Shown here one piece after another: positions 23,867 to 63,540 of a DNA stretch of 64,000 bases. Numbering within the stretch: position 1 is the first letter of the stretch; each line of letters begins with the position of its first letter. Source of the DNA: Gammaproteobacteria bacterium (GTDB lineage Bacteria > Pseudomonadota > Gammaproteobacteria > JAJDYQ01); contig OY759969.1 in the NCBI GenBank assembly GCA_963662865.1, forward strand, positions 2,287,742 through 2,351,741. Direction: 5' to 3'. Below the pieces are notes generated by a model that saw only the letters and a program-made list of their open reading frames with translations, was not told the DNA's origin and made no database searches. Position numbers and translations under genes: made by a program.

Positions 23867-26623
23867 TTATTCCGTAAGGATGTCTTTTATGTCCGATGCT
23901 TTTTTTGAAACCGCAAACTTCCATTTGCCGAATCTGCCGTTTTCGTTGACGGCTTTAATCCATTCTTTCATGTATGCGTGTTTTGTATCGTCTTTTTCTT
24001 TTTGCTGGCCCTTGGTTTCCAGCACAAGCAATTCTCCCGATTTCATCCGCACAAGAAAATCGGGGCGGTATTTTTTCACAATGCCATTGTAGATATATAA
24101 AACCTCAAAACCGAGATGGTCATTTTTAACCCACGCCTCAACCGCTTTATTTCTATCAAGCTCGAAAGATTCTGATGCTTCCCAGGTGCTGTCATAAACA
24201 CAGTAATTGATATGGCTTCTTTTCGCGGCTTTGCAGGGTTTGCCGGTCCGCCATGGGCGCATGTCGCCGGTTGATCGAATCGGATGGTTGTCATCAAGCA
24301 CAAGAGCGGTTTTCTCTGTATTGTTAAATTCTATTGCCTGCCAGAAATGACGAATGATCTTTGACATATTGAGCGTTATCACAAGATGTCTTCTCTTTAC
24401 ATCCTGATTAAAGAGAGCGGGCATTATCTGTATGCGGTCTGAATCCAGAAACTGTTCCGCAAGACGCACAAGTTCTGCCATCAATAGCGGCGCAGATGCC
24501 GGCCATTCAGGTTTCATTTCCTGCCAGACGATTTGTGCCGCCTTGAATACAAGGGTTTGTTTGCGGAATTTTTTCGCCAGCTTTTCAATATCAATGTCTT
24601 CAATTTGGGAAACGTCAGGCTTGTTATTTACCGTGGGCGCGATCTCCGCTATTTCAACGGTTGTTGAAGTATCCAGTTCCAGTTTTTTTATTTTTTTCCA
24701 ATCAATGGCAAGTTCGGGCCTGTAAGTTCTGTCTATGCGGATGACATTGGGCCACGAAATGGCAAACTGTCTCTTTTCATCCACAGGCCGAATGATCGTT
24801 TTCGGCGGCGGAGGCGGTGGAGGTTTATCCATGTCTTCGTGTGGCAGAAAGCTGAACGGCACACCGAAAACATTGACATATTCGGCATCAAATAATCCCG
24901 TGTCTTCATTGATTTCATAAGAAGCACGGCGTAGCCCACGCCCGATAATCTGCTCACATAACAATTGACTTGTGAATGCCCGCAGCCCCATAATCTGCGT
25001 CACTGTCCTTGCATCCCAGCCTTCGGACAACATTCCAACGGATATAACATTCTGTACTTGATCACCAGGTTTCCCTTCCTGCCCGACCGTGTTCACTTTT
25101 TCACGCAGAATTTCAGCCTGTTCTTTTTTCGTTGCTTTGCGACTACCTTCCCTGCCTGCTTTTGTTGTGCCCGGTTCCGGCTCTTTTTCCTCGGCTTTTT
25201 TCAGCACTTCCGAGTCGATATGCAAAATCCCATTGGGAGCGCATAACTCATGAATGCTAATGTCCTTATTGTCAAAGGCATACTTGATTCTGGCTGCTGT
25301 TTCCGTGCGGTTTGCGACCGTAATCATCACCGGCGGCGTTTTCGCCCCTTGTCCCTCCCATATTTCTTTTGTTTTTAACCAATCGTAACCGAGCAGGAGA
25401 TAGGCGTTTCTTACAAGGTCGGGAGGCGGTTCATGCGGTTCAGCCTTTCTGTTCAGGTCATCTTTGACTTCCTCTTCGTTGTAGATGTGATACAGGCGGG
25501 ATTTATGGGTACTGGCATTTGGCAGAGCGTCATCACGCACAACAACACGGGGTGTTTTGACAAGCCCTGATTCTATGGCGTCACTGAGTCCGAAATCGCT
25601 GACAATCCAGGGGAACAACATCTCTTCCGATGTCTTCTTGCCGCTTGGTGCAAATGGCGTAGCAGAAAAATCAAAGCAATTCAAAATCCCCCTGGTTTTG
25701 TGTATGCGGTCAAGGCCACCAACCCATTTTGTGGCCTCGTCTATTTCCTCTTTCCTGACACCTGCTATTTTTGACTGTGCCGGAACACGCCAGGCATGAT
25801 GGGCCTCATCGTTAATCACAATCAGATTTCTGGCATTGGCCATATCACCGAGAACTTCGCGGGTATATGCCTCATCGCTTTTCGCGCCGCGTTTATCCAC
25901 CCCTTTCTTCTTTTTGATTTTTTCCTCACTTTCCCAGTTCAGGGTATGCCAGTTTCTTATGAGAACCTTTGCCTGTCTCAGCTTTTCGAGCAGGGACAAC
26001 GGCACAATACCGAACTCATCGTAATAGTTCTGCCTGTTTGATGGCATCAAAACAGAAAGACGCTCCCTGACGGTCAGATTAGGCGCGACAATAAAAACAT
26101 TTTGTGAAAACCGCCTGTCTTGAGGGTAAGTGGCGCGATTGATGGCCTGCCACGCAATCAGCATGGCCATGACAACGGTCTTCCCTGTACCAGTGGCGAG
26201 CTTGGAGCACAAACGGCTCAGTTCTCTGTCCTTTGCAATTTCAATTCCGGTCTTTTCCGAGTCGGGAGTTTCAATAAACCATATCAGCGTTTCAATCGCT
26301 TCCATCTGGCAGAAGAAAAACGGGAAATCTCTTTGCTCGTTGTCCCTCCAGTGTTCAAGCAGGGCTTTGGTAATACCCGTAATTCCGGGGCAGCCCGCTT
26401 TGCACCAGGAGTCAACACGTTTACGGATTTGGTTGACGGTCGGCAGGGGAACAAAAATGCCCTTGTCCTGATGCGGTTTTGCCTTCGGGTCGGCAACCAT
26501 ATAACCCGCTTCACGACGACCCTCCACACGCTCAAGCGGGGCGTCTTCCTCGACGAACTTCCAGTGCTTGGAAGGTGCAGAGCAGGGGGAGTTGATTATG
26601 AGTGATGAGGATTTTTCAGGCAT
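23867..26623 (-). CDS. res: Type III restriction endonuclease subunit (Res): SF2 helicase plus C-terminal PD-(D/E)xK nuclease
   Basis: Helicase motif I LATGTGKTVVMA and motif II VINDEAHHAW. C-terminal endonuclease motif YRPDFLVRMKSGELLVLETKG. 918 aa. Confidence 0.85.
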   Translation of the reverse strand: MPEKSSSLIINSPCSAPSKHWKFVEEDAPLERVEGRREAGYMVADPKAKPHQDKGIFVPLPTVNQIRKRVDSWCKAGCPGITGITKALLEHWRDNEQRDFPFFFCQMEAIETLIWFIETPDSEKTGIEIAKDRELSRLCSKLATGTGKTVVMAMLIAWQAINRATYPQDRRFSQNVFIVAPNLTVRERLSVLMPSNRQNYYDEFGIVPLSLLEKLRQAKVLIRNWHTLNWESEEKIKKKKGVDKRGAKSDEAYTREVLGDMANARNLIVINDEAHHAWRVPAQSKIAGVRKEEIDEATKWVGGLDRIHKTRGILNCFDFSATPFAPSGKKTSEEMLFPWIVSDFGLSDAIESGLVKTPRVVVRDDALPNASTHKSRLYHIYNEEEVKDDLNRKAEPHEPPPDLVRNAYLLLGYDWLKTKEIWEGQGAKTPPVMITVANRTETAARIKYAFDNKDISIHELCAPNGILHIDSEVLKKAEEKEPEPGTTKAGREGSRKATKKEQAEILREKVNTVGQEGKPGDQVQNVISVGMLSEGWDARTVTQIMGLRAFTSQLLCEQIIGRGLRRASYEINEDTGLFDAEYVNVFGVPFSFLPHEDMDKPPPPPPPKTIIRPVDEKRQFAISWPNVIRIDRTYRPELAIDWKKIKKLELDTSTTVEIAEIAPTVNNKPDVSQIEDIDIEKLAKKFRKQTLVFKAAQIVWQEMKPEWPASAPLLMAELVRLAEQFLDSDRIQIMPALFNQDVKRRHLVITLNMSKIIRHFWQAIEFNNTEKTALVLDDNHPIRSTGDMRPWRTGKPCKAAKRSHINYCVYDSTWEASESFELDRNKAVEAWVKNDHLGFEVLYIYNGIVKKYRPDFLVRMKSGELLVLETKGQQKEKDDTKHAYMKEWIKAVNENGRFGKWKFAVSKKASDIKDILTE

Positions 26624-26649
26624 TGAGTTAGCGTGTATTTTGAATGCTT

Positions 26650-27444
26650 CTAATGAAGATACGACTCTATGTTTTGCTCAATGGGCTTCCTTGAATCTAT
26701 TGAACTGACTTGTGAGCCTGCAATATTTGCATCTATCAATCTACTTAAATGTTTGGATGGAATTTCTTCCTGGTTTTCAAAAATAAGCAGCGTAGATTTT
26801 TGTATCTCGTGAATAAAAAAATGTTGCAAGGTTATGGTAACTAACTTTGCTTTGTCCTGATTCGGAATTCCAAACAGAAAAAGAGGGATTCCTTCTTCTT
26901 TTTTCAGATAATAATCAATGATGTAATTCTCAGAGTTGTCTAAATCAGGCACCTGATAATCCTGCTCTAATTTAATATCAGGCTTATCGCTGATGATCTG
27001 TTCCAATAGCTCCTTTAAGTCTCTGTAAAAAGTGGATGAAAATCGATCTCTGTTCAGATAAGACAAGTCATAAACCTGATTCAGTGCCTGGCTTAAGCGA
27101 AAGATGCCTTGAGAGATTTGTTCAACTGAAACATCCACATAAAAATTGCCATTGTCCTCGTTGATTTGATTTTCAGCGAGTATCTGGTTCATCAATTTCC
27201 CTTTGTTACCTTTGAAGTACCCATCAACATTTGGAGTGTAGTAGCTCAATCTCATCATGGTATCTGCCCCATCGCTAATACGTACTTTGCCAACGTCAGT
27301 TTCCTGTAAATAGATAGAGTAATGGTCGCCATCCGGATATGAGAATGGGTTTGAGATCATTTTCTTTCCATTCTGACGCTCTATCAGTTTGATGTCGGTA
27401 CATAATTGACGGCAGAGTTCTTTCTGTAATTGATCTTTATTCAT
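26650..27444 (-). CDS. hypothetical protein (tentatively DUF1828/DUF1829-like), embedded between mod and res
   Basis: 264 aa, AT-rich. Overlaps the upstream ORF by 4 nt, so likely translationally coupled. The DUF assignment is from memory of FSYPDGDHYSIYL-type N-terminal domains and is unverified. Confidence 0.45.
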   Translation of the reverse strand: MNKDQLQKELCRQLCTDIKLIERQNGKKMISNPFSYPDGDHYSIYLQETDVGKVRISDGADTMMRLSYYTPNVDGYFKGNKGKLMNQILAENQINEDNGNFYVDVSVEQISQGIFRLSQALNQVYDLSYLNRDRFSSTFYRDLKELLEQIISDKPDIKLEQDYQVPDLDNSENYIIDYYLKKEEGIPLFLFGIPNQDKAKLVTITLQHFFIHEIQKSTLLIFENQEEIPSKHLSRLIDANIAGSQVSSIDSRKPIEQNIESYLH

Positions 27445-27920
27445 GCTAAAAAACCCTCAAAGAGATTCTGTTGTGGAGAATTCGAATGTATGCTGTAGTC
27501 TTCACATAAGCATTTGAATGCGCCATCCAGGTTTTCATACCTTTTGGTTGTTTGCGTGTCTTCATGCTCTGGGCTTCTATCGCCTCTATTGATACTTTCA
27601 GGAGTGGCATGATGGATGTGGCATTCATGGCTCGCCACATTGTTTTCATGGTTAGAACCGTTATAGCGGGAAAGCATGATGTTCTTACCGTCTTTTTCAA
27701 CAAGACGAATGCCACAAGAGAAATTCTCCATATTTGATTCATTTTGTCGGGCAAAAACCTTTATAGATAAATCAGACAAGTGATCAGGCTTATCGACACC
27801 GTCAAACTGAACATCAAAATTCCATTGCTGACTTCCTCTTTGGCTGGATTTTTGCTCCTCTTCTATGGTTTTGGGAATTTCTCTAATTGATTTCAATATT
27901 TCCTCTGAAATTTCCATCAC
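27441..27920 (-). CDS. hypothetical His/Cys-rich protein (HECHIHH motif), embedded between mod and res
   Basis: 159 aa. SRYNGSNHENNVASHECHIHHATPE is a possible metal site. The ORF starts immediately after the remnant ORF stop. Confidence 0.45.
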   Translation of the reverse strand: MMEISEEILKSIREIPKTIEEEQKSSQRGSQQWNFDVQFDGVDKPDHLSDLSIKVFARQNESNMENFSCGIRLVEKDGKNIMLSRYNGSNHENNVASHECHIHHATPESINRGDRSPEHEDTQTTKRYENLDGAFKCLCEDYSIHSNSPQQNLFEGFLA

Positions 27921-28192
27921 TCCACCTCTACAATCTCCATCACCTTCAAACTCTCAATCCTTCGATCATCCATGGTTCGAATGGTTTCAATTGCCTCACT
28001 CCGGCGGAAAAAGAATGGGAAATTCCTTTGTTCATCGTCCTGATGCAGTTTTGCCTTCGGGTCGGCAACCATATAACCCGCTTCACGACAGCCTTTCACA
28101 CGCTCAAACGAGGCGTCTTCCTCGATGAACTTCCAGTGTTTGGAAGGTGCGGCGTAGAGGGAGTTGATTATGAGAGATTTTAGGGCTAACAT
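27917..28192 (-). pseudogene. chimeric remnant: res 5' end (with an internal deletion) fused to a mod-3'-end-like sequence
   Basis: The 91-aa ORF MLALKSLIINSLYAAPSKHWKFIEEDASFERVKGCREAGYMVADPKAKLHQD|DEQRNFPFFFRRSEAIET|IRTMDDRRIESLKVMEIVEVE aligns to Res aa 8-52, then Res aa 93-112. Its tail resembles the Mod C-terminus VKIVDDRGIESLKVINVIQRK. The DNA at 28000..28192 is roughly 85-90% identical to 26318..26623. Confidence 0.8.
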
Positions 28193-28758
28193 TTTAAATC
28201 GCTGAAGGAAATTTTTTCCAAAGAGTGGATAACTTTGAAGTTCTTACCTCTGTACCAGCACTCGCCTATCGGCTGAGGTATTATTCGTTGCTTATTCAGT
28301 CTTTCTCCTTTTTCCCCTTCTTTCTCTGCAAGAACAACAAAGTGTTTTTTAATTTCAAGTTTAATATCAAAATGAGCCCACATCATTGAGACCAGATATT
28401 CCCAAACAGGAATAGTAAAAAGTATTTGTTTGCATGCTTCTCTAGGAATGCCATTTTTATCGGGAGACAAAGTTTCTTTTATCTCTAGAAAATAAATATC
28501 CATACCATTTTCATTCTGCGGCACTATAACCAGAAAATCACAAGATTTCTTGTAATCTTTTTGAATCTTTATTATCCTCGAGTGGGCTTTTCCTCCTGCC
28601 GGAATAGAAAGTTTAAGCCCATTATCAGGTGATTCAATTATTGTAAATCTAACTCGATTTCCTTCTTTCAACTCAAAACAGTTATTTTTTATAATTTTAC
28701 ATTGAATTTTTAGAAGTCTTTGTATTGCCTCCATGGGGTCAGTCATCTTTTGAATCAT
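28186..28758 (-). CDS. small PD-(D/E)xK-type nuclease-like protein
   Basis: 190 aa. SCDFLVIVPQNENGMDIYFLEIKET has the D...E-x-K spacing and resembles the Res endonuclease motif RPDFLV...LVLETKG. AT-rich. Overlaps the upstream ATPase gene end. Confidence 0.5.
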   Translation of the reverse strand: MIQKMTDPMEAIQRLLKIQCKIIKNNCFELKEGNRVRFTIIESPDNGLKLSIPAGGKAHSRIIKIQKDYKKSCDFLVIVPQNENGMDIYFLEIKETLSPDKNGIPREACKQILFTIPVWEYLVSMMWAHFDIKLEIKKHFVVLAEKEGEKGERLNKQRIIPQPIGECWYRGKNFKVIHSLEKISFSDLKC

Positions 28759-30121
28759 CCCTTTTCATATAGGTAAGCTCCGCAGATATCTGATTAATGC
28801 CATCAATCGCATTATCAAAAACCGTCATACCATCAATGCCCTGTTTATCTATAGTGCATTGTCTTAAGCCGCCTTTCTCACAAAGATAAGCTCTAACAGA
28901 TTTTGGGTCAAGATGATCAATCTCTGTATATTCTCTTTTATGCTTCACAAGAAACTCTTTTTTTCTGTCAAAATCACCGTGCAGCATAATCAGATTATTA
29001 ATTTCTTTGATTATGTAATCGCTGTAGGTTGTTATAAGAACTTTAATTCCTGCATTAACACAAAATACCAAGAGTCGTGCCATTAGAATTTGATTGGTCG
29101 GGCTAAGATGGCTTTCGGGCTCATCAATGATAAGGAGTTGATTTGGCGCAGCTTTGTGTTTTAAATAAAAATATAAATCAGAAAGCCCTCTTGCCGAGGA
29201 TGAAGCCAGATGTAATGGTATATTAAATTTATCCTTCCTTTTTCTTGAAATAAATCTGATTTCATCTTTTATCATCTTATAGTAGCCATCCATCATATAT
29301 CTTATTGGAACGACTGTATCATCTATCAATTCACTTTTTTGTCTTTGTATGTTTGACAAATCCCTGGTGAAGTCTATATTATCTTTTATGGGCTGTGCAT
29401 AACGTGCACTTTGTTTTTCAATAAAAATAAACGGATCAGAATGCCTATCGTCTGACAATTTTTGCAGCTCCTCAACCAACCTGTTCTTGGTAAAATCCAG
29501 TTCTTTATAAAACAATGAAATACCAAATCTTTCTGCGGATAAAATATGGAGATTGAGACCAATATTAAGTGCTGTTCTTGCAAGTAATCTGCATACACCA
29601 CTCTCAATGACCGATGACGGCATACTTTCTAAACCATCAGCTTCAAATATCAAATTTCTATCATCCTGAAAAAAGGATTTCATCGTTGCCTTATCTTTTG
29701 AAGGGAACTTGATTGCATCTGATGTCGTTTGATGGTCTTTTCCCCAGTCAAGTTGGAAATGTGCCCCTTCAAATTCGCTTCTTGGAGAGCTGAATACCTG
29801 ATGAATAATTTCTTGAGAAAAGAATTGATATGCTCTGTTGATCAACTCATTACGTATTTTTTCGTATTCTTCTAATTCAATACGTGCTGTGCCTGTCTCT
29901 TCTATCTGTCGTGTGACCTCTTCTATTTTTTCCTCAAACCATTCAGGGAAATCAATTATATCATAAAGGGGAAATCCATTTTTACAAAAATCTAAAAACC
30001 CATAAAGGGTATAAACAAGGTAAGTTTTACCGGTATTATTCTGCCCTGCAATGATCGTTAAATCTCCCAATTCCAGTTCGGCATCCTTGATTGGCCCGAT
30101 ATTTTTGAAGGTTGCTTTCAT
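28739..30121 (-). CDS. ABC-type AAA ATPase (AAA_15/AAA_21-like, OLD/Septu/PARIS-type) without a fused nuclease domain
   Basis: Walker A IIAGQNNTGKTYL near the N-terminus. A distal Walker B/D-loop LLIIDEPESHLSP, with a long insert between. Start placed at the ATG at 30121 (MKATFKNIGP) with an AGAGGAAAT RBS, 5 nt after the mod stop. Confidence 0.7.
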   Translation of the reverse strand: MKATFKNIGPIKDAELELGDLTIIAGQNNTGKTYLVYTLYGFLDFCKNGFPLYDIIDFPEWFEEKIEEVTRQIEETGTARIELEEYEKIRNELINRAYQFFSQEIIHQVFSSPRSEFEGAHFQLDWGKDHQTTSDAIKFPSKDKATMKSFFQDDRNLIFEADGLESMPSSVIESGVCRLLARTALNIGLNLHILSAERFGISLFYKELDFTKNRLVEELQKLSDDRHSDPFIFIEKQSARYAQPIKDNIDFTRDLSNIQRQKSELIDDTVVPIRYMMDGYYKMIKDEIRFISRKRKDKFNIPLHLASSSARGLSDLYFYLKHKAAPNQLLIIDEPESHLSPTNQILMARLLVFCVNAGIKVLITTYSDYIIKEINNLIMLHGDFDRKKEFLVKHKREYTEIDHLDPKSVRAYLCEKGGLRQCTIDKQGIDGMTVFDNAIDGINQISAELTYMKRDDSKDD

Positions 30122-30125
30122 GCTT

Positions 30126-32741
30126 TCATTTCCTCTGAATAACATTAATGACTTTGAGGCTCTCAATCCCACGGTCATCCACTATTTTAACCGCGATTCG
30201 GCTGTTTTTGCCCAATTCAAACGGCAGTGACACCGTGCCTTGGTAGGATTCTATCAGGCCTTCGTCTATTTCGGCCCTCAGGTTTCTGGCGAGTTTTGTC
30301 CAGCCGCCTTTGTCGTCTGCCATTGGGAAGAACACCTGACTCGGATACAGGCTTCTGCCGTCGTAGTCGGTGTCCAGCATCCAGACGGCGATTTTGTTTT
30401 CATCACCGGATTCCAGTTTGCCGGTTCGGGTATTGAAATAGTCAAAGCCGTTCATGTGCACCTGCCATTGCCCCATCAGTTCGCCTTTTCTGATTTGTTC
30501 TACCGCGATGTCCGGCTGGCCTATCAGCCAGAAACTTTCATTGCCTGACCGTTTCTTTTTCAGATCATCGGTTTGCAGGTCGGCGTTCATTTGCGCTTTC
30601 AGTGGTGTCACCCCGGGCCAGTTGGTTTCGTCTATATCCCTGGCGGCTTCGGGATCAAACTGAAAGGCGGCGAACACAACCATTTCAGGCTTTGGCATCA
30701 GGGTTGCCGCTTCCTGCAAGGCGTTTTCTACCTGTCGCGCTTCCAGCGGGGCGTGTTCCGGGCCGAAGGAGATCACCGCACGGCGGGGTTTATAGGCGGT
30801 TGCGGTTTCTCTTACTGCATCTGTACCGGAATCATCCGGTCTGGTTTCGGCGTCTGCATGCAGCCAGCGGCACGGCAGGGGGTCAATACGGGAAAATGAA
30901 ATGCGCTGTCCGCCCTTGCCGCGTATGCCGGTTTTCAGCAGTTCATCACGCCATTCGCTCTGGCGCAGGGTTTCGCCGGTGCGGGCAATGGTTGCATCTG
31001 CCGGAACAGGCGGCGCCTGTATATTATCAATCGGCTGCACGGTCGGAGACGGCACGGCTTCCGCGGTAAAGGGGCCGGTAACACGTGCCCGTTTACTGTC
31101 TTTTTCCGGTTGATCAAACAGGGTTTCCCTTGTAGATGGCTTTACGCCAATCAAAACGCTTGGGGATACCTTCGGAACATATTTATATTCAAACCCGCCT
31201 CCCACGCCTTCATCGGGCCAGGCCAGTTTGTAATAGTCAAATGTGGCGGTCATCAGTCGTTGTTTGGCGAGGGTCAATGCCACACGCGAAGTGTCGCAGG
31301 TGATCCAGCGGCGCCCCCATTGCTCGGCCATAGTGGCGGTTGTGCCGGAACCGCAGGTCGGGTCAAACACCAGATCGCCCGGGTCGGTCGTCATCAGGAG
31401 GCAGCGTTGTATGGCCTTAACCGAAGTCTCCACAACATATCTCTTTTCACTCGGATACATCTGCGCCGGCCAGATATTATTGATACGCCGTCCCGGCACT
31501 TCATCTTCGTACTTTTTCCACCTGAGAGAGTCCTGTTTTTCAAGTGCTTCCAGCCGCCCCATTTCTGCCAGTTTGTCCAAGCCCTGTTTTGAAACAGACC
31601 AGTGTCTGTTTTTTGAACATCGGAAAATTCTGCCCTTCCATTGATAGGGTTCGGACCTTCCGGTGGTAGAAACGCCCTGCGAGTCCAGTCCTGTGCGCTG
31701 ATAGATGCGCGCCCCCTCGGGCAGGAATTTATCGGGGTTGAAACGTTCTTCATCGGTTAATTTCCGGCAGGTGCCATCAGACAGTTCCACCGCCACATAA
31801 GAGCTAAAGTAATCCACGATTTCCGGTCGTGTCAGTGGTTCGTACAACTGCCGATACTTCGCTTGGTTTTTGTCTTTTGCATACCAGAGCAGGTAGTCCG
31901 AGACCTGCGGCAGGTGTTGTGTGGAACTGCCACTGGTAGTCGCAAATGAAATGGTGGCGATACGATTCTCCGCGCCAAAAATATCGTCCATCACGGTCCC
32001 GACTCGATGCACATTTTCATCGCCAATCTGCACAAAGCACGAACCGCTTTCGGTCAGCAATTCACTTGCCAGCAAAAACCGGTCACGCAGATAGGTCAGA
32101 TACGAATGAATACCCAGTTCCCAGGTGTCGCGGAACGCCTTGATCATTTCCGGTTCAGAGGTTAAGTCCTCATCTTTGCCATCCCGTACCTCGCGTTTAC
32201 CCACAAACGGCTGAAAATTGGAGCCGTATCTAATGCCATATGGCGGGTCCATATAGACACACTGCACCTTGCCTGCCATATTCTCTTTTTGCAGCAGCGA
32301 GTTCATCACCAGCAGCGAATCACCGGCAATCAGGCGGTTGCTCCAGTTGTTGGCGTGTTGGTAAAACTCGATCGCTTGGCGCAGCGGGATGCTCTGCTCT
32401 TCTTCAAAAAGCGACGCCTGTCTGCCGTTACCGCCGTTGCTGTTTCTGACCGCTTCGATGATGGTGCGCGGGTCAATGCGCTCGTGGACATGCAACGATT
32501 GGGTCGGCACGGCAAAAGATGTGTGCTCGGCCTTGCCGGCCCATTGCAGTTGCGGGTCCAGGTGCGGGTCGTGTTGCCAGGTCTTTTTTTCTCCTTTGTC
32601 CGGGTCGGTTTTGGGCGTTACCAGCCCGGCGGGCGGATTGTTTGCCCTTTCCTCGCCTCCATGAGAGTAGGATTCGATTTTGCGTTTTTTCGGCGGCAAG
32701 TTTGTACACACCTTTTGATGATTCCTCCCATGGTACCGCAT
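30126..32741 (-). CDS. mod: Type III R-M N6-adenine DNA methyltransferase (Mod, beta-class) with a long C-terminal extension
   Basis: LIAGDSLLVMNSLL...GKVQCVYMDPPYGIRYGSNF (motif IV) precedes motif I LVFDPTCGSGTTATMAEQWGRRWITCD. 871 aa versus about 600-650 for typical Mod proteins. Confidence 0.8.
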   Translation of the reverse strand: MRYHGRNHQKVCTNLPPKKRKIESYSHGGEERANNPPAGLVTPKTDPDKGEKKTWQHDPHLDPQLQWAGKAEHTSFAVPTQSLHVHERIDPRTIIEAVRNSNGGNGRQASLFEEEQSIPLRQAIEFYQHANNWSNRLIAGDSLLVMNSLLQKENMAGKVQCVYMDPPYGIRYGSNFQPFVGKREVRDGKDEDLTSEPEMIKAFRDTWELGIHSYLTYLRDRFLLASELLTESGSCFVQIGDENVHRVGTVMDDIFGAENRIATISFATTSGSSTQHLPQVSDYLLWYAKDKNQAKYRQLYEPLTRPEIVDYFSSYVAVELSDGTCRKLTDEERFNPDKFLPEGARIYQRTGLDSQGVSTTGRSEPYQWKGRIFRCSKNRHWSVSKQGLDKLAEMGRLEALEKQDSLRWKKYEDEVPGRRINNIWPAQMYPSEKRYVVETSVKAIQRCLLMTTDPGDLVFDPTCGSGTTATMAEQWGRRWITCDTSRVALTLAKQRLMTATFDYYKLAWPDEGVGGGFEYKYVPKVSPSVLIGVKPSTRETLFDQPEKDSKRARVTGPFTAEAVPSPTVQPIDNIQAPPVPADATIARTGETLRQSEWRDELLKTGIRGKGGQRISFSRIDPLPCRWLHADAETRPDDSGTDAVRETATAYKPRRAVISFGPEHAPLEARQVENALQEAATLMPKPEMVVFAAFQFDPEAARDIDETNWPGVTPLKAQMNADLQTDDLKKKRSGNESFWLIGQPDIAVEQIRKGELMGQWQVHMNGFDYFNTRTGKLESGDENKIAVWMLDTDYDGRSLYPSQVFFPMADDKGGWTKLARNLRAEIDEGLIESYQGTVSLPFELGKNSRIAVKIVDDRGIESLKVINVIQRK

Positions 32742-63464: not shown

Positions 63465-63540
63465 TGGCTCCCCCGGCCGGGCTCGAACCAGCGACCCAAT
63501 GATTAACAGTCATTTGCTCTACCAACTGAGCTACAGGGGA
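63465..63540 (-). tRNA. tRNA-Asn (GTT)
   Basis: Reverse complement TCCCCTGTAGCTCAGTTGGTAGAGCAAATGACTGTTAATCATTGGGTCGCTGGTTCGAGCCCGGCCGGGGGAGCCA. GTT anticodon in the CTGTTAA loop, with an encoded CCA end. The plus-strand ORF 63424..63660 (…LLYQLSYRG…) is the usual tRNA translation artefact. Confidence 0.9.

What the first reader, a model, noticed from the sequence alone, without database searches (positions are those of the whole stretch)
26650..30121. Type III R-M locus with two foreign gene modules wedged between mod and res
On the minus strand the order is mod (871 aa) – AAA ATPase – PD-(D/E)xK-like 190-aa protein – [res5'/mod3' chimeric remnant] – 159-aa His/Cys-rich protein – 264-aa protein – res (918 aa). 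Canonical Type III systems are a compact mod-res pair. Here about 3.5 kb of visibly AT-rich DNA encoding four extra proteins sits inside the operon, with tight gene overlaps (4-nt overlaps, a 5-nt gap after mod) that suggest co-transcription with the R-M genes. Type I loci with embedded Abi genes such as prrC and rloC are known; the same arrangement in a Type III locus, with these particular partner proteins, is not something I recognise as described. The inserted modules are strong candidates for novel phage-defence or abortive-infection functions that exploit the R-M promoter and its genomic niche.
Basis: partly seen in the sequence, partly recalled or inferred. Interest (0 to 1): 0.85.

Follow-up and report, generated by a model that had tools for sequence, protein, structure and literature searches.

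The report
Defence-gene cassettes stacked inside restriction operon
A Type III-like restriction-modification operon carries two separate anti-phage gene pairs between its two genes, split by a decayed scar made of the operon's own gene ends; related genomes show this gap is a swap-site for many defence cassettes, which extends a known phenomenon rather than revealing a wholly new one.

Summary
On the minus strand lie mod (30126-32741), an ABC-type ATPase (28739-30121), a 190-aa protein, a 91-aa res5'/mod3' chimera, a 158/159-aa protein, a 264-aa protein and res (23867-26623). They are tightly packed, and the 3.5-kb insert has 34-42% GC against 45-58% in mod and res.

Module A is not novel: it belongs to the PD-T4-4 / PDC-M47 family (ABC ATPase plus PD-(D/E)xK nuclease). 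Module B (Cys/His protein plus DUF1828 protein) is a conserved, untested pair and only partly resembles the PADLOC candidate PDC-M24. Defence genes embedded in RM-type operons are already described for Type I RM, BREX, DISARM and Hma, but I found no such description for Type III.

New here: in 25 of 35 related loci from many phyla the mod-res gap holds co-oriented cargo, mostly known or candidate defence or toxin-antitoxin modules. In the window's closest relatives, cassettes are stacked. They are separated by copies of one junction element J (res codons 1-86 fused to mod codons 771-867 at an ACCAAAAC microhomology). J evolves almost neutrally, and cassette content and order differ between loci with ~98% identical flanks. 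The window's chimera is a decayed J. I infer cassette exchange by homologous recombination.

The parts
30126..32741 (-). mod: Type III-like N6/N4 DNA methyltransferase, 871 aa, apparently intact (DPPY and DPTCGSGTT motifs visible in the translation)
   Evidence: Pfam N6_N4_Mtase 4.7e-29. PADLOC MTase_III 2.4e-152. Translation. 48-72% identical, or 35-44% in L038, to the mod of 35 of the 39 related loci.
28739..30121 (-). Cassette A, gene 1: ABC-type (AAA_15/AAA_21) ATPase, 460 aa, Walker A GQNNTGKT and Walker B LLIIDEPE. Proposed sensor/regulator of the PD-T4-4 / PDC-M47 family.
   Evidence: PADLOC PD-T4-4_A 2.7e-108 over the full length; PDC-M47A 1.1e-89. Pfam AAA_15 2.9e-17. Homologues at 55-68% identity occupy the same slot right after mod or J in L042-L046, and one lies in L040. 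The 460-aa product is on record.
28186..28758 (-). Cassette A, gene 2: 190-aa PD-(D/E)xK-motif protein, proposed nuclease effector
   Evidence: PADLOC PDC-M47B 3.2e-8. Its syntenic homologues also hit PD-T4-4_B weakly (1.5e-4, 6.2e-5). D74, D87, E92 and K94 are invariant in the family alignment.
27917..28192 (-). Decayed junction element J: res 5' fragment (codons ~5-52 and ~93-110) fused to about 17 codons of the mod 3' end. Still an open 91-codon frame that bridges cassette A to cassette B.
   Evidence: blastn and the repeat finder: 142 nt at 90% to res, 57 nt at 75% to res, 34 nt at 76% to the mod 3' end. NCBIfam BPTD_3080 family 1.5e-7 on residues 5-68. Intact 179-190-aa J ORFs sit in the equivalent position in L041, L042, L044, L045 and L046.
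27441..27920 (-). Cassette B, gene 1: 158/159-aa protein with invariant C68, H90, E98, H100, H102 and C136. Predicted fold is beta-rich. Function unknown; proposed partner (sensor, regulator or antitoxin) of p264.
26650..27444 (-). Cassette B, gene 2: 264-aa DUF1828 protein with two domains. The fold resembles SfsA/NucS/Can2-type and restriction-endonuclease proteins. Proposed nucleic-acid-targeting effector.
23867..26623 (-). res: BPTD_3080-family restriction endonuclease, 918 aa (SF2 helicase with ATGTGKT and DEAH; C-terminal PDFLV...LETK nuclease motif), apparently intact
   Evidence: NCBIfam NF046055 at 1089 bits, cut-off 800. Pfam ResIII 1.7e-10. Translation.

Best explanation
Window 23867-32741 is an intact Type III-like R-M operon (mod plus a BPTD_3080-family res). 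Its mod-res junction serves as a landing and exchange site for independent anti-phage cassettes. Two cassettes are present. Cassette A (ATPase plus p190) is a PD-T4-4/PDC-M47-type nuclease-NTPase system. By analogy with PD-T4-4 and WonAB, the ABC ATPase senses infection and licenses the PD-(D/E)xK nuclease. Cassette B (p159 plus p264) is a conserved, uncharacterised two-gene module. Its DUF1828 protein has a nuclease-like fold and is the probable effector, with p159 as its partner. The 91-codon chimera between the cassettes is a decayed copy of a junction element J. J arose once, by illegitimate recombination at an ACCAAAAC microhomology between res codon ~86 and mod codon ~771. J places a copy of the mod 3' end upstream, and of the res 5' end downstream, of every cassette. 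Cassettes can therefore be added, lost, replaced or reordered by ordinary homologous recombination with incoming or resident copies of the locus, without an integrase. The cassettes are probably co-transcribed and translationally coupled with mod and res, but they act independently of restriction. Shown: gene content, family assignments, conservation, J anatomy, its recurrence and relaxed constraint, variable cargo, and allelic diversity. Inferred: the defence activity of either cassette, co-transcription, and recombination as the exchange mechanism.
For: The literature on PD-T4-4 and WonAB as ABC-ATPase plus PD-(D/E)xK systems was read. The cargo site is general. In 35 related loci where both genes are visible, 10 have mod and res adjacent and 25 have 0.6-5.5 kb between them, and in 22 of these 25 the cargo is co-oriented. 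GC is lower in the gap than in mod/res in 22 of the 25, and equal in L012, L013 and L033. The cargo includes HEC-01, Iet, SoFic, Uma2/PDC-S03, RmrA plus DUF4411, a Ppl-like protein, PDC-M68, PDC-S35 (TIR), MNT/HepT, PIN, a Type IIG RM, a KAP NTPase and SLFN_AlbA_2 proteins. J recurs in close relatives. L041, L042, L044, L045 and L046 carry intact J ORFs of 179-190 aa with the same boundaries (res 1-86 | mod 771-867). L042 and L044 hold four cassettes, with full J copies at the first two boundaries and a mod-C-terminal fragment alone at the third. The mod-derived parts of J copies in L041 and L042 share derived substitutions, which points to a single origin, and the junction lies in a shared ACCAAAAC. 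J evolves near neutrality (dN/dS 0.29-1.44), while the same segments in functional res and mod give 0.03-0.20. Three architectures occur at one chromosomal site in one sample; the flanks of L042, L045 and L046 are ~98% identical, and L044 shares L042's layout at ~94% identity: A|J|Iet|J|B|modC|AlbA (L042, L044), A|J|898-aa SMC_N/AAA ATPase|AlbA (L046), and mini-mod|B|J|A|mini-res (L045). Cassette order in L045 is B-J-A, the reverse of the window. The B cassette carries a mod 3' remnant even when it sits beside an unrelated Type III RM (L047). In the window, J is 90% identical to the resident res over 142 nt and then only 75%, a mosaic consistent with gene conversion. No transposase, integrase or tRNA flanks the locus, and the neighbours are housekeeping genes.
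Against: No experiment shows that either cassette defends against phage. The window's p190 itself does not reach the PD-T4-4_B model; it hits only PDC-M47B, at 3e-8. p264 lacks a canonical (D/E)xK in a beta strand, its structural matches have low TM-scores (0.25-0.32), and they may reflect fold rather than activity. p159 has no informative structural match. Co-transcription is inferred only from spacing; the promoter and terminator scan was uninformative (15 and 13 sites against 14.2 and 11.8 expected). J-bearing stacks were seen only in one subclade (window, L041-L046). All but the window are ENA metagenome assemblies, so the exchange model rests on a few related genomes. All J copies could descend vertically from one scar, with cassette changes arising by other means. 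Seven of seven full-length J ORFs are open, which is slightly odd for a purely neutral scar. I explain this by selection for continued translation through the operon, which is an inference.
Confidence: 0.72

Rival explanations
1. The inserted modules are functional accessories ('guardians') of this R-M system. Like PrrC in the EcoPrrI Type I locus or PARIS, they would sense phage anti-restriction proteins that block Mod/Res and trigger abortive infection. Their position between mod and res would then reflect functional coupling.
For: The modules are embedded and tightly packed inside the operon. The ATPase is an ABC ATPase that also matches AriA of PARIS (1.3e-18). PrrC is an embedded ABC-type guardian of a Type I system (PMC12707154). 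The p159/p264 pair is repeatedly found in or next to Type III-like RMs (L041-L044, L047, L048).
Against: The same two cassettes are retained in L045, where mod is cut to 75 codons and res is internally deleted. PD-T4-4 protects when cloned from an E. coli ICE with no such RM (PMC9519451). An ATPase homologue and a p264 homologue sit in another island without this mod/res (L040). The slot holds more than 15 unrelated cargo types, including TA pairs and another RM, which argues for a neutral landing site.
Confidence: 0.13
2. Cassettes are moved by an unrecognised site-specific or transposition mechanism (integron-like or a cryptic mobile element). On this view J is only a by-product, and homologous recombination plays no special role.
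For: The array of co-oriented cassettes separated by a repeated element resembles an integron superficially. Cargo has lower GC than its host in 22 of the 25 cargo-bearing loci.
Against: No integrase, transposase or recombinase gene lies in or beside the window locus or in L041-L046. No inverted repeats or att-like motifs occur at cassette borders in the window. The repeated element is made purely of the host operon's own coding ends. Cassette borders coincide with the native mod stop and res start.
Confidence: 0.08
3. J is not a scar but a functional small protein, for example an adaptor made of the Res N-terminal and Mod C-terminal interaction domains that regulates Mod-Res assembly or links cassettes to the R-M complex.
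For: All seven full-length J copies examined are open reading frames of 179-190 codons with coupled starts and stops. Nine J-like ORFs (one only 40% identical) with at least 93% coverage exist in the database.
Against: dN/dS is 0.29-1.44 against 0.03-0.20 for the parental segments. J copies show non-conservative changes at positions invariant in real mods (Y to C, G to D, P to S). J is truncated or reduced to short fragments in the window and in L043 with the cassettes intact.
Confidence: 0.05
4. The insert is decaying junk that has broken the operon, so neither the cassettes nor the R-M system is functional.
For: The DNA is AT-rich and looks foreign, and it contains an obvious pseudogene-like chimera.
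Against: All four inserted ORFs are intact and conserved, with many invariant residues. mod and res keep their catalytic motifs. The same arrangement is kept in several genomes.
Confidence: 0.02

Closest known systems
Defence systems 'embedded' in other defence operons (Payne, Hughes, Fineran & Jackson, bioRxiv 10.1101/2024.01.29.577857); the classic case is prrC inside the EcoPrrI Type I locus
   Same: Co-oriented defence genes are nested between the genes of a methylation-based defence operon. The cargo is highly diverse and rich in ABC-ATPase plus nuclease pairs. HEC and PDC families from that study recur here as cargo (HEC-01, PDC-M47, PDC-M68, PDC-S03, PDC-S09, PDC-S35).
   Different: [quoted passage not shown] In the text I read, it does not describe cassettes separated by repeated chimeric fragments of the host genes, nor stacks of up to four cassettes.
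PD-T4-4 (Vassallo et al. 2022, PMC9519451), PADLOC candidate PDC-M47, and the related WonAB (PMC12137116)
   Same: A two-gene operon of an ABC (AAA_15/21) ATPase followed by a small PD-(D/E)xK protein. The ATPase matches PD-T4-4_A at 2.7e-108 and PDC-M47A at 1.1e-89. p190 keeps the D...ExK motif.
   Different: p190 matches only PDC-M47B (3.2e-8), not PD-T4-4_B. Its relatives match PD-T4-4_B only weakly. The genomic context is an RM operon rather than an ICE or prophage. Activity is untested.
PADLOC candidate PDC-M24 (DUF1828-containing B component)
   Same: p264 matches PDC-M24B (1.2e-14) through its DUF1828 N-terminal half.
   Different: The match covers only residues 3-158. p159 matches no PADLOC model, so it does not match PDC-M24A. 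PDC-M24 itself is an untested candidate.
Integron cassette arrays
   Same: An array of promoterless, co-oriented cassettes separated by a repeated element. Content and order vary between close relatives. Expression probably comes from an upstream operon promoter.
   Different: There is no integrase and no attC-like structured site. The repeated element is a fusion of the host operon's own coding ends, and exchange would rely on general homologous recombination. This is an analogy only.
Defence hotspots flanked by conserved core genes, where exchange occurs through flanking homology
   Same: Conserved flanks (here the mod 3' and res 5' ends) bracket fast-turnover defence cargo.
   Different: The flanks are the two genes of one defence operon. 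Copies of both flanks are reiterated inside the array.

Membership tests
Type III restriction-modification system | Mod subunit: a DNA N6/N4 methyltransferase encoded upstream of res on the same strand | tested here: met
   Pfam N6_N4_Mtase 4.7e-29. PADLOC MTase_III 2.4e-152. DPPY motif in the translation. mod precedes res on the minus strand.
Type III restriction-modification system | Res subunit: an SF2 helicase-like ATPase (ResIII) plus a PD-(D/E)xK endonuclease domain | tested here: met
   Pfam ResIII 1.7e-10. RE_endonuc reached only 0.0052, below its cut-off. ATGTGKT, DEAH and PDFLV...LETK motifs are visible in the translation. NCBIfam BPTD_3080-family restriction endonuclease at 1089 bits against a cut-off of 800.
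Type III restriction-modification system | Membership of the classical EcoP15I/StyLTI Res family | tested here: not met
   NCBIfam PRK15483 scored only 20.6 bits against a cut-off of 564. I therefore call the system 'Type III-like'.
Type III restriction-modification system | Mod2Res complex that cleaves near inversely oriented unmethylated sites, ATP-dependently | not testable with these tools
   This needs biochemistry and a methylome.
PD-T4-4 (PADLOC/Vassallo) | A component: ABC/AAA_15-type ATPase matching the PD-T4-4_A profile | tested here: met
   PDLC04033 at 2.7e-108, residues 20-471 of the 479-aa ORF against profile positions 1-457 of 460.
PD-T4-4 (PADLOC/Vassallo) | B component: adjacent small PD-(D/E)xK protein matching the PD-T4-4_B profile | tested here: inconclusive
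   p190 shows no PD-T4-4_B hit at E<=0.1 but hits PDC-M47B at 3.2e-8. Homologues in L042 and L043 hit PD-T4-4_B at 1.5e-4 and 6.2e-5. The D74/E92/K94 motif is invariant.
PD-T4-4 (PADLOC/Vassallo) | Protection against phage when expressed | not testable with these tools
   This needs a phage challenge.
PADLOC PDC-M47 | Adjacent A and B components both matching the profiles | tested here: met
   PDC-M47A 1.1e-89 and PDC-M47B 3.2e-8 on adjacent, overlapping genes.
PADLOC PDC-M24 | B component (DUF1828 protein) matching over its full length | tested here: inconclusive
   PDC-M24B at 1.2e-14, but only residues 3-158 of 264 against profile positions 4-157 of 255.
PADLOC PDC-M24 | A component adjacent and matching the PDC-M24A profile | tested here: not met
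   p159 has no PADLOC hit at E<=0.1.
Embedded defence cassette (guilt-by-embedding definition) | Genes lie between the genes of a recognised multi-gene defence system, on the same strand, and are not mobilome or housekeeping genes | tested here: met
   The same holds in 22 related loci.
Integron | IntI tyrosine recombinase, an attI site and attC sites | tested here: not met
   No recombinase domain occurs in the operon or among its ten flanking ORFs. No structured inverted repeats occur at cassette borders.

The most novel reading that the evidence does not exclude
The BPTD_3080-type mod/res operon would be the chassis of an integrase-free cassette array. A single chimeric junction element (res codons 1-86 fused to mod codons 771-867) reiterates the operon's two ends around every cassette. 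Defence modules would then be captured, stacked, permuted and exported by ordinary homologous recombination, a 'homology-armed' analogue of an integron dedicated to immunity. In addition, the p159/DUF1828 pair it carries would be a new anti-phage system with a new Cys/His partner protein.
Probability: 0.4. Interest if true: 0.72.

Novelty: new variant of a known kind. Interest (0 to 1): 0.55.

Why it matters
If the reading is right, three things follow. First, Type III-like R-M operons join Type I RM, BREX, DISARM and Hma as hosts of embedded defence genes. The 'guilt-by-embedding' search could then be extended to a further widespread operon family, seen here in more than ten phyla with cargo in about 70% of loci. 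Several cargo proteins (L018, L024, L026, p159) match nothing known. Second, the junction element offers a concrete and testable mechanism for how embedded cassettes are stacked and swapped without dedicated recombinases. That bears on the open question of how defence repertoires turn over so quickly within species. Third, the p159/p264 pair is a well-conserved, compact candidate system that is ready for cloning. The finding does not reveal a new category of biology: module A is a known family, and embedding as such is already described.

Tried and rejected
- **E. coli genomes.** A megablast of the 9.5-kb locus against complete E. coli genomes found nothing, so the locus is not enterobacterial.
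- **Exact look-ups.** Look-ups of p264 and P0001 failed.
- **Promoter and terminator scan.** It showed no enrichment over shuffles and so says nothing about operon structure.
- **tRNA or integrase boundaries.** The only tRNA is at 63465, far from the locus. No integrase lies among the flanking ORFs. I rejected a genomic-island or prophage origin for the whole locus.
- **p264 sequence profile against PDB.** Nothing was significant. Only fold comparison gave nuclease-like hits.
- **Split mod hits in L013 and L030.** I first suspected cargo inside mod. They are in-frame insertions in long mod ORFs, so I rejected that idea.
- **J as a functional protein.** I considered this and ranked it low after the dN/dS test.
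- **Literature.** Searches for a prior description of Type III-embedded cassettes or of chimeric junction repeats found none. The library is incomplete, so this is weak evidence of absence. DUF1828 is essentially unstudied.

Full report
**1. Observation**

The minus strand of the window carries, in order:
- mod, 30126-32741, 871 aa
- an ATPase, 28739-30121, 460 aa from the ATG at 30121
- p190, 28186-28758
- a 91-codon ORF, 27917-28192
- p159, 27441-27920 (158 aa if the ATG at 27917 is used)
- p264, 26650-27444
- res, 23867-26623, 918 aa

GC falls to 0.34-0.42 between about 26500 and 30000. It is 0.44-0.51 in res and 0.51-0.58 in mod.

The genes are tightly packed:
- a 4-nt gap after the mod stop
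- a 20-nt ATPase/p190 overlap if the first ATG is used
- a 7-nt p190/chimera overlap
- TGATG at the chimera/p159 junction
- ATGA at the p159/p264 junction
- 26 nt before res

The 91-codon ORF is a true chimera. A 142-nt stretch is 90% identical to res codons ~6-53. After an internal deletion, 57 nt are 75% identical to res. Finally, 34 nt are 76% identical to the mod 3' end.

**2. The host operon**

mod is an N6/N4 methyltransferase (Pfam 4.7e-29; PADLOC MTase_III 2.4e-152). res has a ResIII helicase domain and scores 1089 bits on the NCBIfam 'BPTD_3080 family restriction endonuclease' model, whose cut-off is 800. It scores only 20.6 bits on the classical Type III Res model. The catalytic motifs can be read directly in the translations: DPPY in mod, and ATGTGKT, DEAH and PD...ETK in res. 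I call the system Type III-like and apparently intact. Its neighbours are housekeeping genes (a TolC-like OEP, rhodanese, PCMT, a GTPase, PyrD, RecG, WaaA and an HldE-like PfkB kinase/cytidylyltransferase). No integrase, transposase or tRNA lies nearby.

**3. Cassette A is a known kind**

The ATPase matches PADLOC PD-T4-4_A at 2.7e-108 over its full length and PDC-M47A at 1.1e-89. In Pfam it is AAA_15/AAA_21. p190 matches PDC-M47B (3.2e-8). Its syntenic homologues in L042 and L043 also touch PD-T4-4_B (1.5e-4 and 6.2e-5). D74, D87, E92 and K94 are invariant in the family, which is a classical PD-(D/E)xK signature.

PD-T4-4 was found by functional selection in E. coli (PMC9519451). It is classed as a PD-(D/E)xK nuclease plus P-loop NTPase system (10.1101/2025.07.10.664194). 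WonAB, an abortive-infection system in V. cholerae, is described as similar to PD-T4-4 and as part of a family of ABC-ATPase sensors paired with nuclease effectors (PMC12137116). I infer the same logic for cassette A.

**4. Cassette B is conserved but uncharacterised**

p264 has a DUF1828 domain (7.8e-18) and matches PDC-M24B only over its N-terminal half (1.2e-14). p159 matches nothing in Pfam, NCBIfam or PADLOC at E<=0.01. Both are real genes. p264 has 38 homologues, nearly all full length, at 40-77% identity with 21 invariant columns. p159 has 17 homologues at 48-69% identity with 37 invariant columns, including C68, H90, E98, H100, H102 and C136.

The two genes are adjacent and overlapping in every context I examined where both occur: L041, L042, L043, L044, L045 and L048. 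They are also adjacent in L047, where the partner is only 29% identical.

- **p159 model.** The model (pLDDT 80.7) is beta-rich and has no informative match.

I propose that p264 is a nucleic-acid-targeting effector and that p159 is its sensor or regulator. This is inference from fold and synteny only. DUF1828 is essentially unstudied.

**5. The mod-res gap is a general cargo site**

A scan of one genome per species with res returned 39 loci from many phyla, including Chloroflexota, Planctomycetota, Cyanobacteriota, Nitrospirota, Bacteroidota and an archaeon. Both genes are visible in 35 of these loci. They are adjacent in 10. In the other 25 they are separated by 0.6-5.5 kb, and in 22 of those the cargo is co-oriented. 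GC is lower in the gap than in mod and res in 22 of the 25.

The cargo is diverse:

| Locus | Cargo |
|---|---|
| L001, L031 | HEC-01A/B |
| L009, L034 | NsnB/PDC-M55A-like ABC ATPase plus a small protein |
| L010, L011, L014, L023 | DUF433/DUF5615, Uma2 (PDC-S03), SoFic |
| L004, L013 | PIN |
| L035 | RmrA-like M78 peptidase plus DUF4411 |
| L015 | Ppl-like ATPase |
| L019 | LmuB-like ATPase plus a deaminase fusion |
| L022 | IetA/IetS |
| L029 | PDC-M68A/B |
| L030 | CAP12-type TIR (PDC-S35) plus HepT |
| L032 | PD-T7-4-like protein plus MNT/HepT |
| L016 | a Type IIG RM |
| L021 | a KAP NTPase |
| L018, L024, L026 | proteins that match nothing |

This is the pattern called 'embedding' by Payne et al. 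(10.1101/2024.01.29.577857). [quoted passage not shown] Type III RM was not among the hosts it analysed. My other searches found no description of embedding in Type III RM.

**6. The chimera is a decayed copy of a recurrent junction element**

In the window's closest relatives (res 73-78% identical) the gap holds stacks of cassettes. Most boundaries between cassettes carry an element J.
- **L041:** mod | DUF6731 + 159 aa | J (187-aa ORF) | p159 + p264 | res.
- **L042, L044:** mod | A | J | IetA/IetS | J | p159 + p264 | mod-C fragment | SLFN_AlbA_2 | res. This is four cassettes in 9.5 kb.
- **L046:** mod | A | J | 898-aa SMC_N/AAA ATPase | AlbA_2 | res.
- **L043:** mod | A | short mod-C fragment | M78 peptidase | short mod-C fragment | p159 + p264 | res.

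Every full J has the same boundaries: res codons 1-86 joined in frame to mod codons 771-867. The joint lies in the octamer ACCAAAAC, which is shared by res (ATT ACC AAA ACA) and mod (AAC ACC AAA ACC GGC). The mod-derived parts of J copies in L041 and L042 share derived substitutions that real mods lack (ESDD, TDCD, FFSMADS). This indicates one founding illegitimate-recombination event followed by spread. Database searching finds about nine J-like ORFs.

**7. J behaves as a scar, not as a protein**

Pairwise dN/dS among seven J copies is 0.29-1.44, and about 0.9-1.4 for the closest pairs. The same segments in functional res and mod give 0.03-0.20. J is truncated in the window and reduced to short fragments in L043. 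Even so, all seven full copies, and the window's remnant, remain open and start/stop-coupled to their neighbours. My inference is that selection keeps the stretch translated, which would avoid polarity on downstream cassettes and res, but does not preserve the protein.

**8. Evidence for cassette exchange**

Four contigs from one sample share one chromosomal site. The flanks of L042, L045 and L046 are ~98% identical, while the mod-plus-cassette-A segment is only 88-91% identical between them; L044 matches L042 at ~94% identity. They carry three architectures. One of them, L045, reads mini-mod (codons 12-50 + 834-869) | p159 + p264 | J | A | mini-res (codons 1-53 + 818-917). In L045 both R-M genes are gutted, both cassettes are kept, and their order is the reverse of the window's.

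In L047 the p159/p264 pair sits upstream of an unrelated Type III RM and still carries a mod C-terminal remnant in front of it. In the window, J is 90% identical to the resident res over 142 nt and then 75%, a mosaic consistent with gene conversion.

Together these observations fit a model in which each cassette travels with a mod-3' arm and a res-5' arm. J reiterates those arms inside the array, and general homologous recombination adds, removes, replaces or permutes cassettes. No recombinase genes or att-like repeats were found. The mechanism remains an inference. The arrays come from a single subclade and mostly from metagenome assemblies. However, J copies within one locus differ by 8-20%, which argues against assembly artefacts.

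**9. Rivals**

- **Guardian role** (PrrC- or PARIS-like coupling to the R-M system). This is weakened by L045, by cassettes found outside this operon (L040, L047, and the E. coli ICE carrying PD-T4-4), and by the sheer variety of cargo.
- **Cryptic site-specific mobile element.** This lacks any recombinase or border motif.
- **Functional J protein.** This is disfavoured by dN/dS and by the decay of J.
- **Junk.** This is excluded by conservation.

**10. Verdict**

Module A is a known family, and embedding is a known phenomenon. The new elements are:
- a Type III-like host operon with cargo in about 70% of loci across phyla;
- the junction-element architecture that explains the tandem cassettes and suggests an integrase-free exchange mechanism;
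- the conserved, untested p159/DUF1828 pair.

I rate this a new variant of a known kind, with interest 0.55.

Noticed in passing
L045 8448-12941 (ENA ERZ25069326 ctg78841): Both R-M genes are internally deleted: mod is reduced to a 75-codon ORF (codons 12-50 + 834-869) and res to codons 1-53 + 818-917. The two defence cassettes and J between them stay intact, in the order B-J-A. So the cassettes outlive the R-M system that hosted them.
   Followed up: partly
L015 8817-10010, L018 8356-9768, L019 7885-9771, L026 8082-10001, L029 8093-9997, L042 10710-11906, L044 12264-13460, L046 13244-14440: A SLFN_AlbA_2 + HATPase_c_4 protein (398-639 aa, fused to a deaminase in L019) sits directly upstream of res in at least eight loci from different phyla. 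It may be a semi-permanent accessory of this R-M family rather than random cargo.
   Followed up: partly
L047 6418-7783 (Logan ERR7570006_1757): A diverged p159/DUF1828 pair lies upstream of an unrelated Type III RM (mod 541 aa, res 876 aa). It is preceded by a 39-codon remnant of the BPTD_3080-type mod C-terminus, a fossil of its previous location.
   Followed up: partly
L040 6282-10531 (ENA ERZ25070917): A p264 homologue (73% identical) is followed by a homologue of the window's ATPase (67.5%), in another defence island with Type I/IIG-like methylases and an ankyrin protein (PDC-M72A-like). Neither p159 nor p190 was detected there. The two 'large' genes of cassettes A and B thus co-occur without their small partners.
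   Followed up: no
one search hits P0076, P0077, P0085, P0092, P0116, P0149, P0160, P0161 and others: Many database proteins of 105-110 aa consist only of the mod C-terminal ~100 residues, and some are on contigs of 15-40 kb. They may be free-standing mod-3' arms next to cassettes (like the 84-aa ORF at L042 10383-10637) or fragments of broken mods.
   Followed up: no
L016 5814-8942: A complete Type IIG restriction-methyltransferase (PADLOC 1.1e-87) is nested between the mod and res of the Type III-like system. This is one R-M system inside another.
   Followed up: no
L018 5810-8248; L024 5996-9997; L026 4640-7755: Multi-gene cargo sets show no PADLOC hits and at most marginal Pfam hits (HATPase_c, NYN and pentapeptide, all below their cut-offs). 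They are candidates for further unknown defence systems.
   Followed up: no
L043 8777-8890: A 38-codon fragment resembling the N-terminus of the cassette-A ATPase lies between the M78 cassette and p159. It suggests a second ATPase cassette once sat there and decayed.
   Followed up: no
L013 6268-9552; L030 4878-8477: The mod genes of some relatives are much longer (1094 and 1199 aa) because of in-frame insertions near residues ~580 and ~750-770. These may be variable target-recognition or accessory domains.
   Followed up: partly
window 28739-28758: The public gene call for p190 does not use the first ATG, because the exact 190-aa product is not on record. The true start may be the ATG at 28746 or 28734, which would shorten or remove the 20-nt overlap with the ATPase gene.
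   Followed up: no
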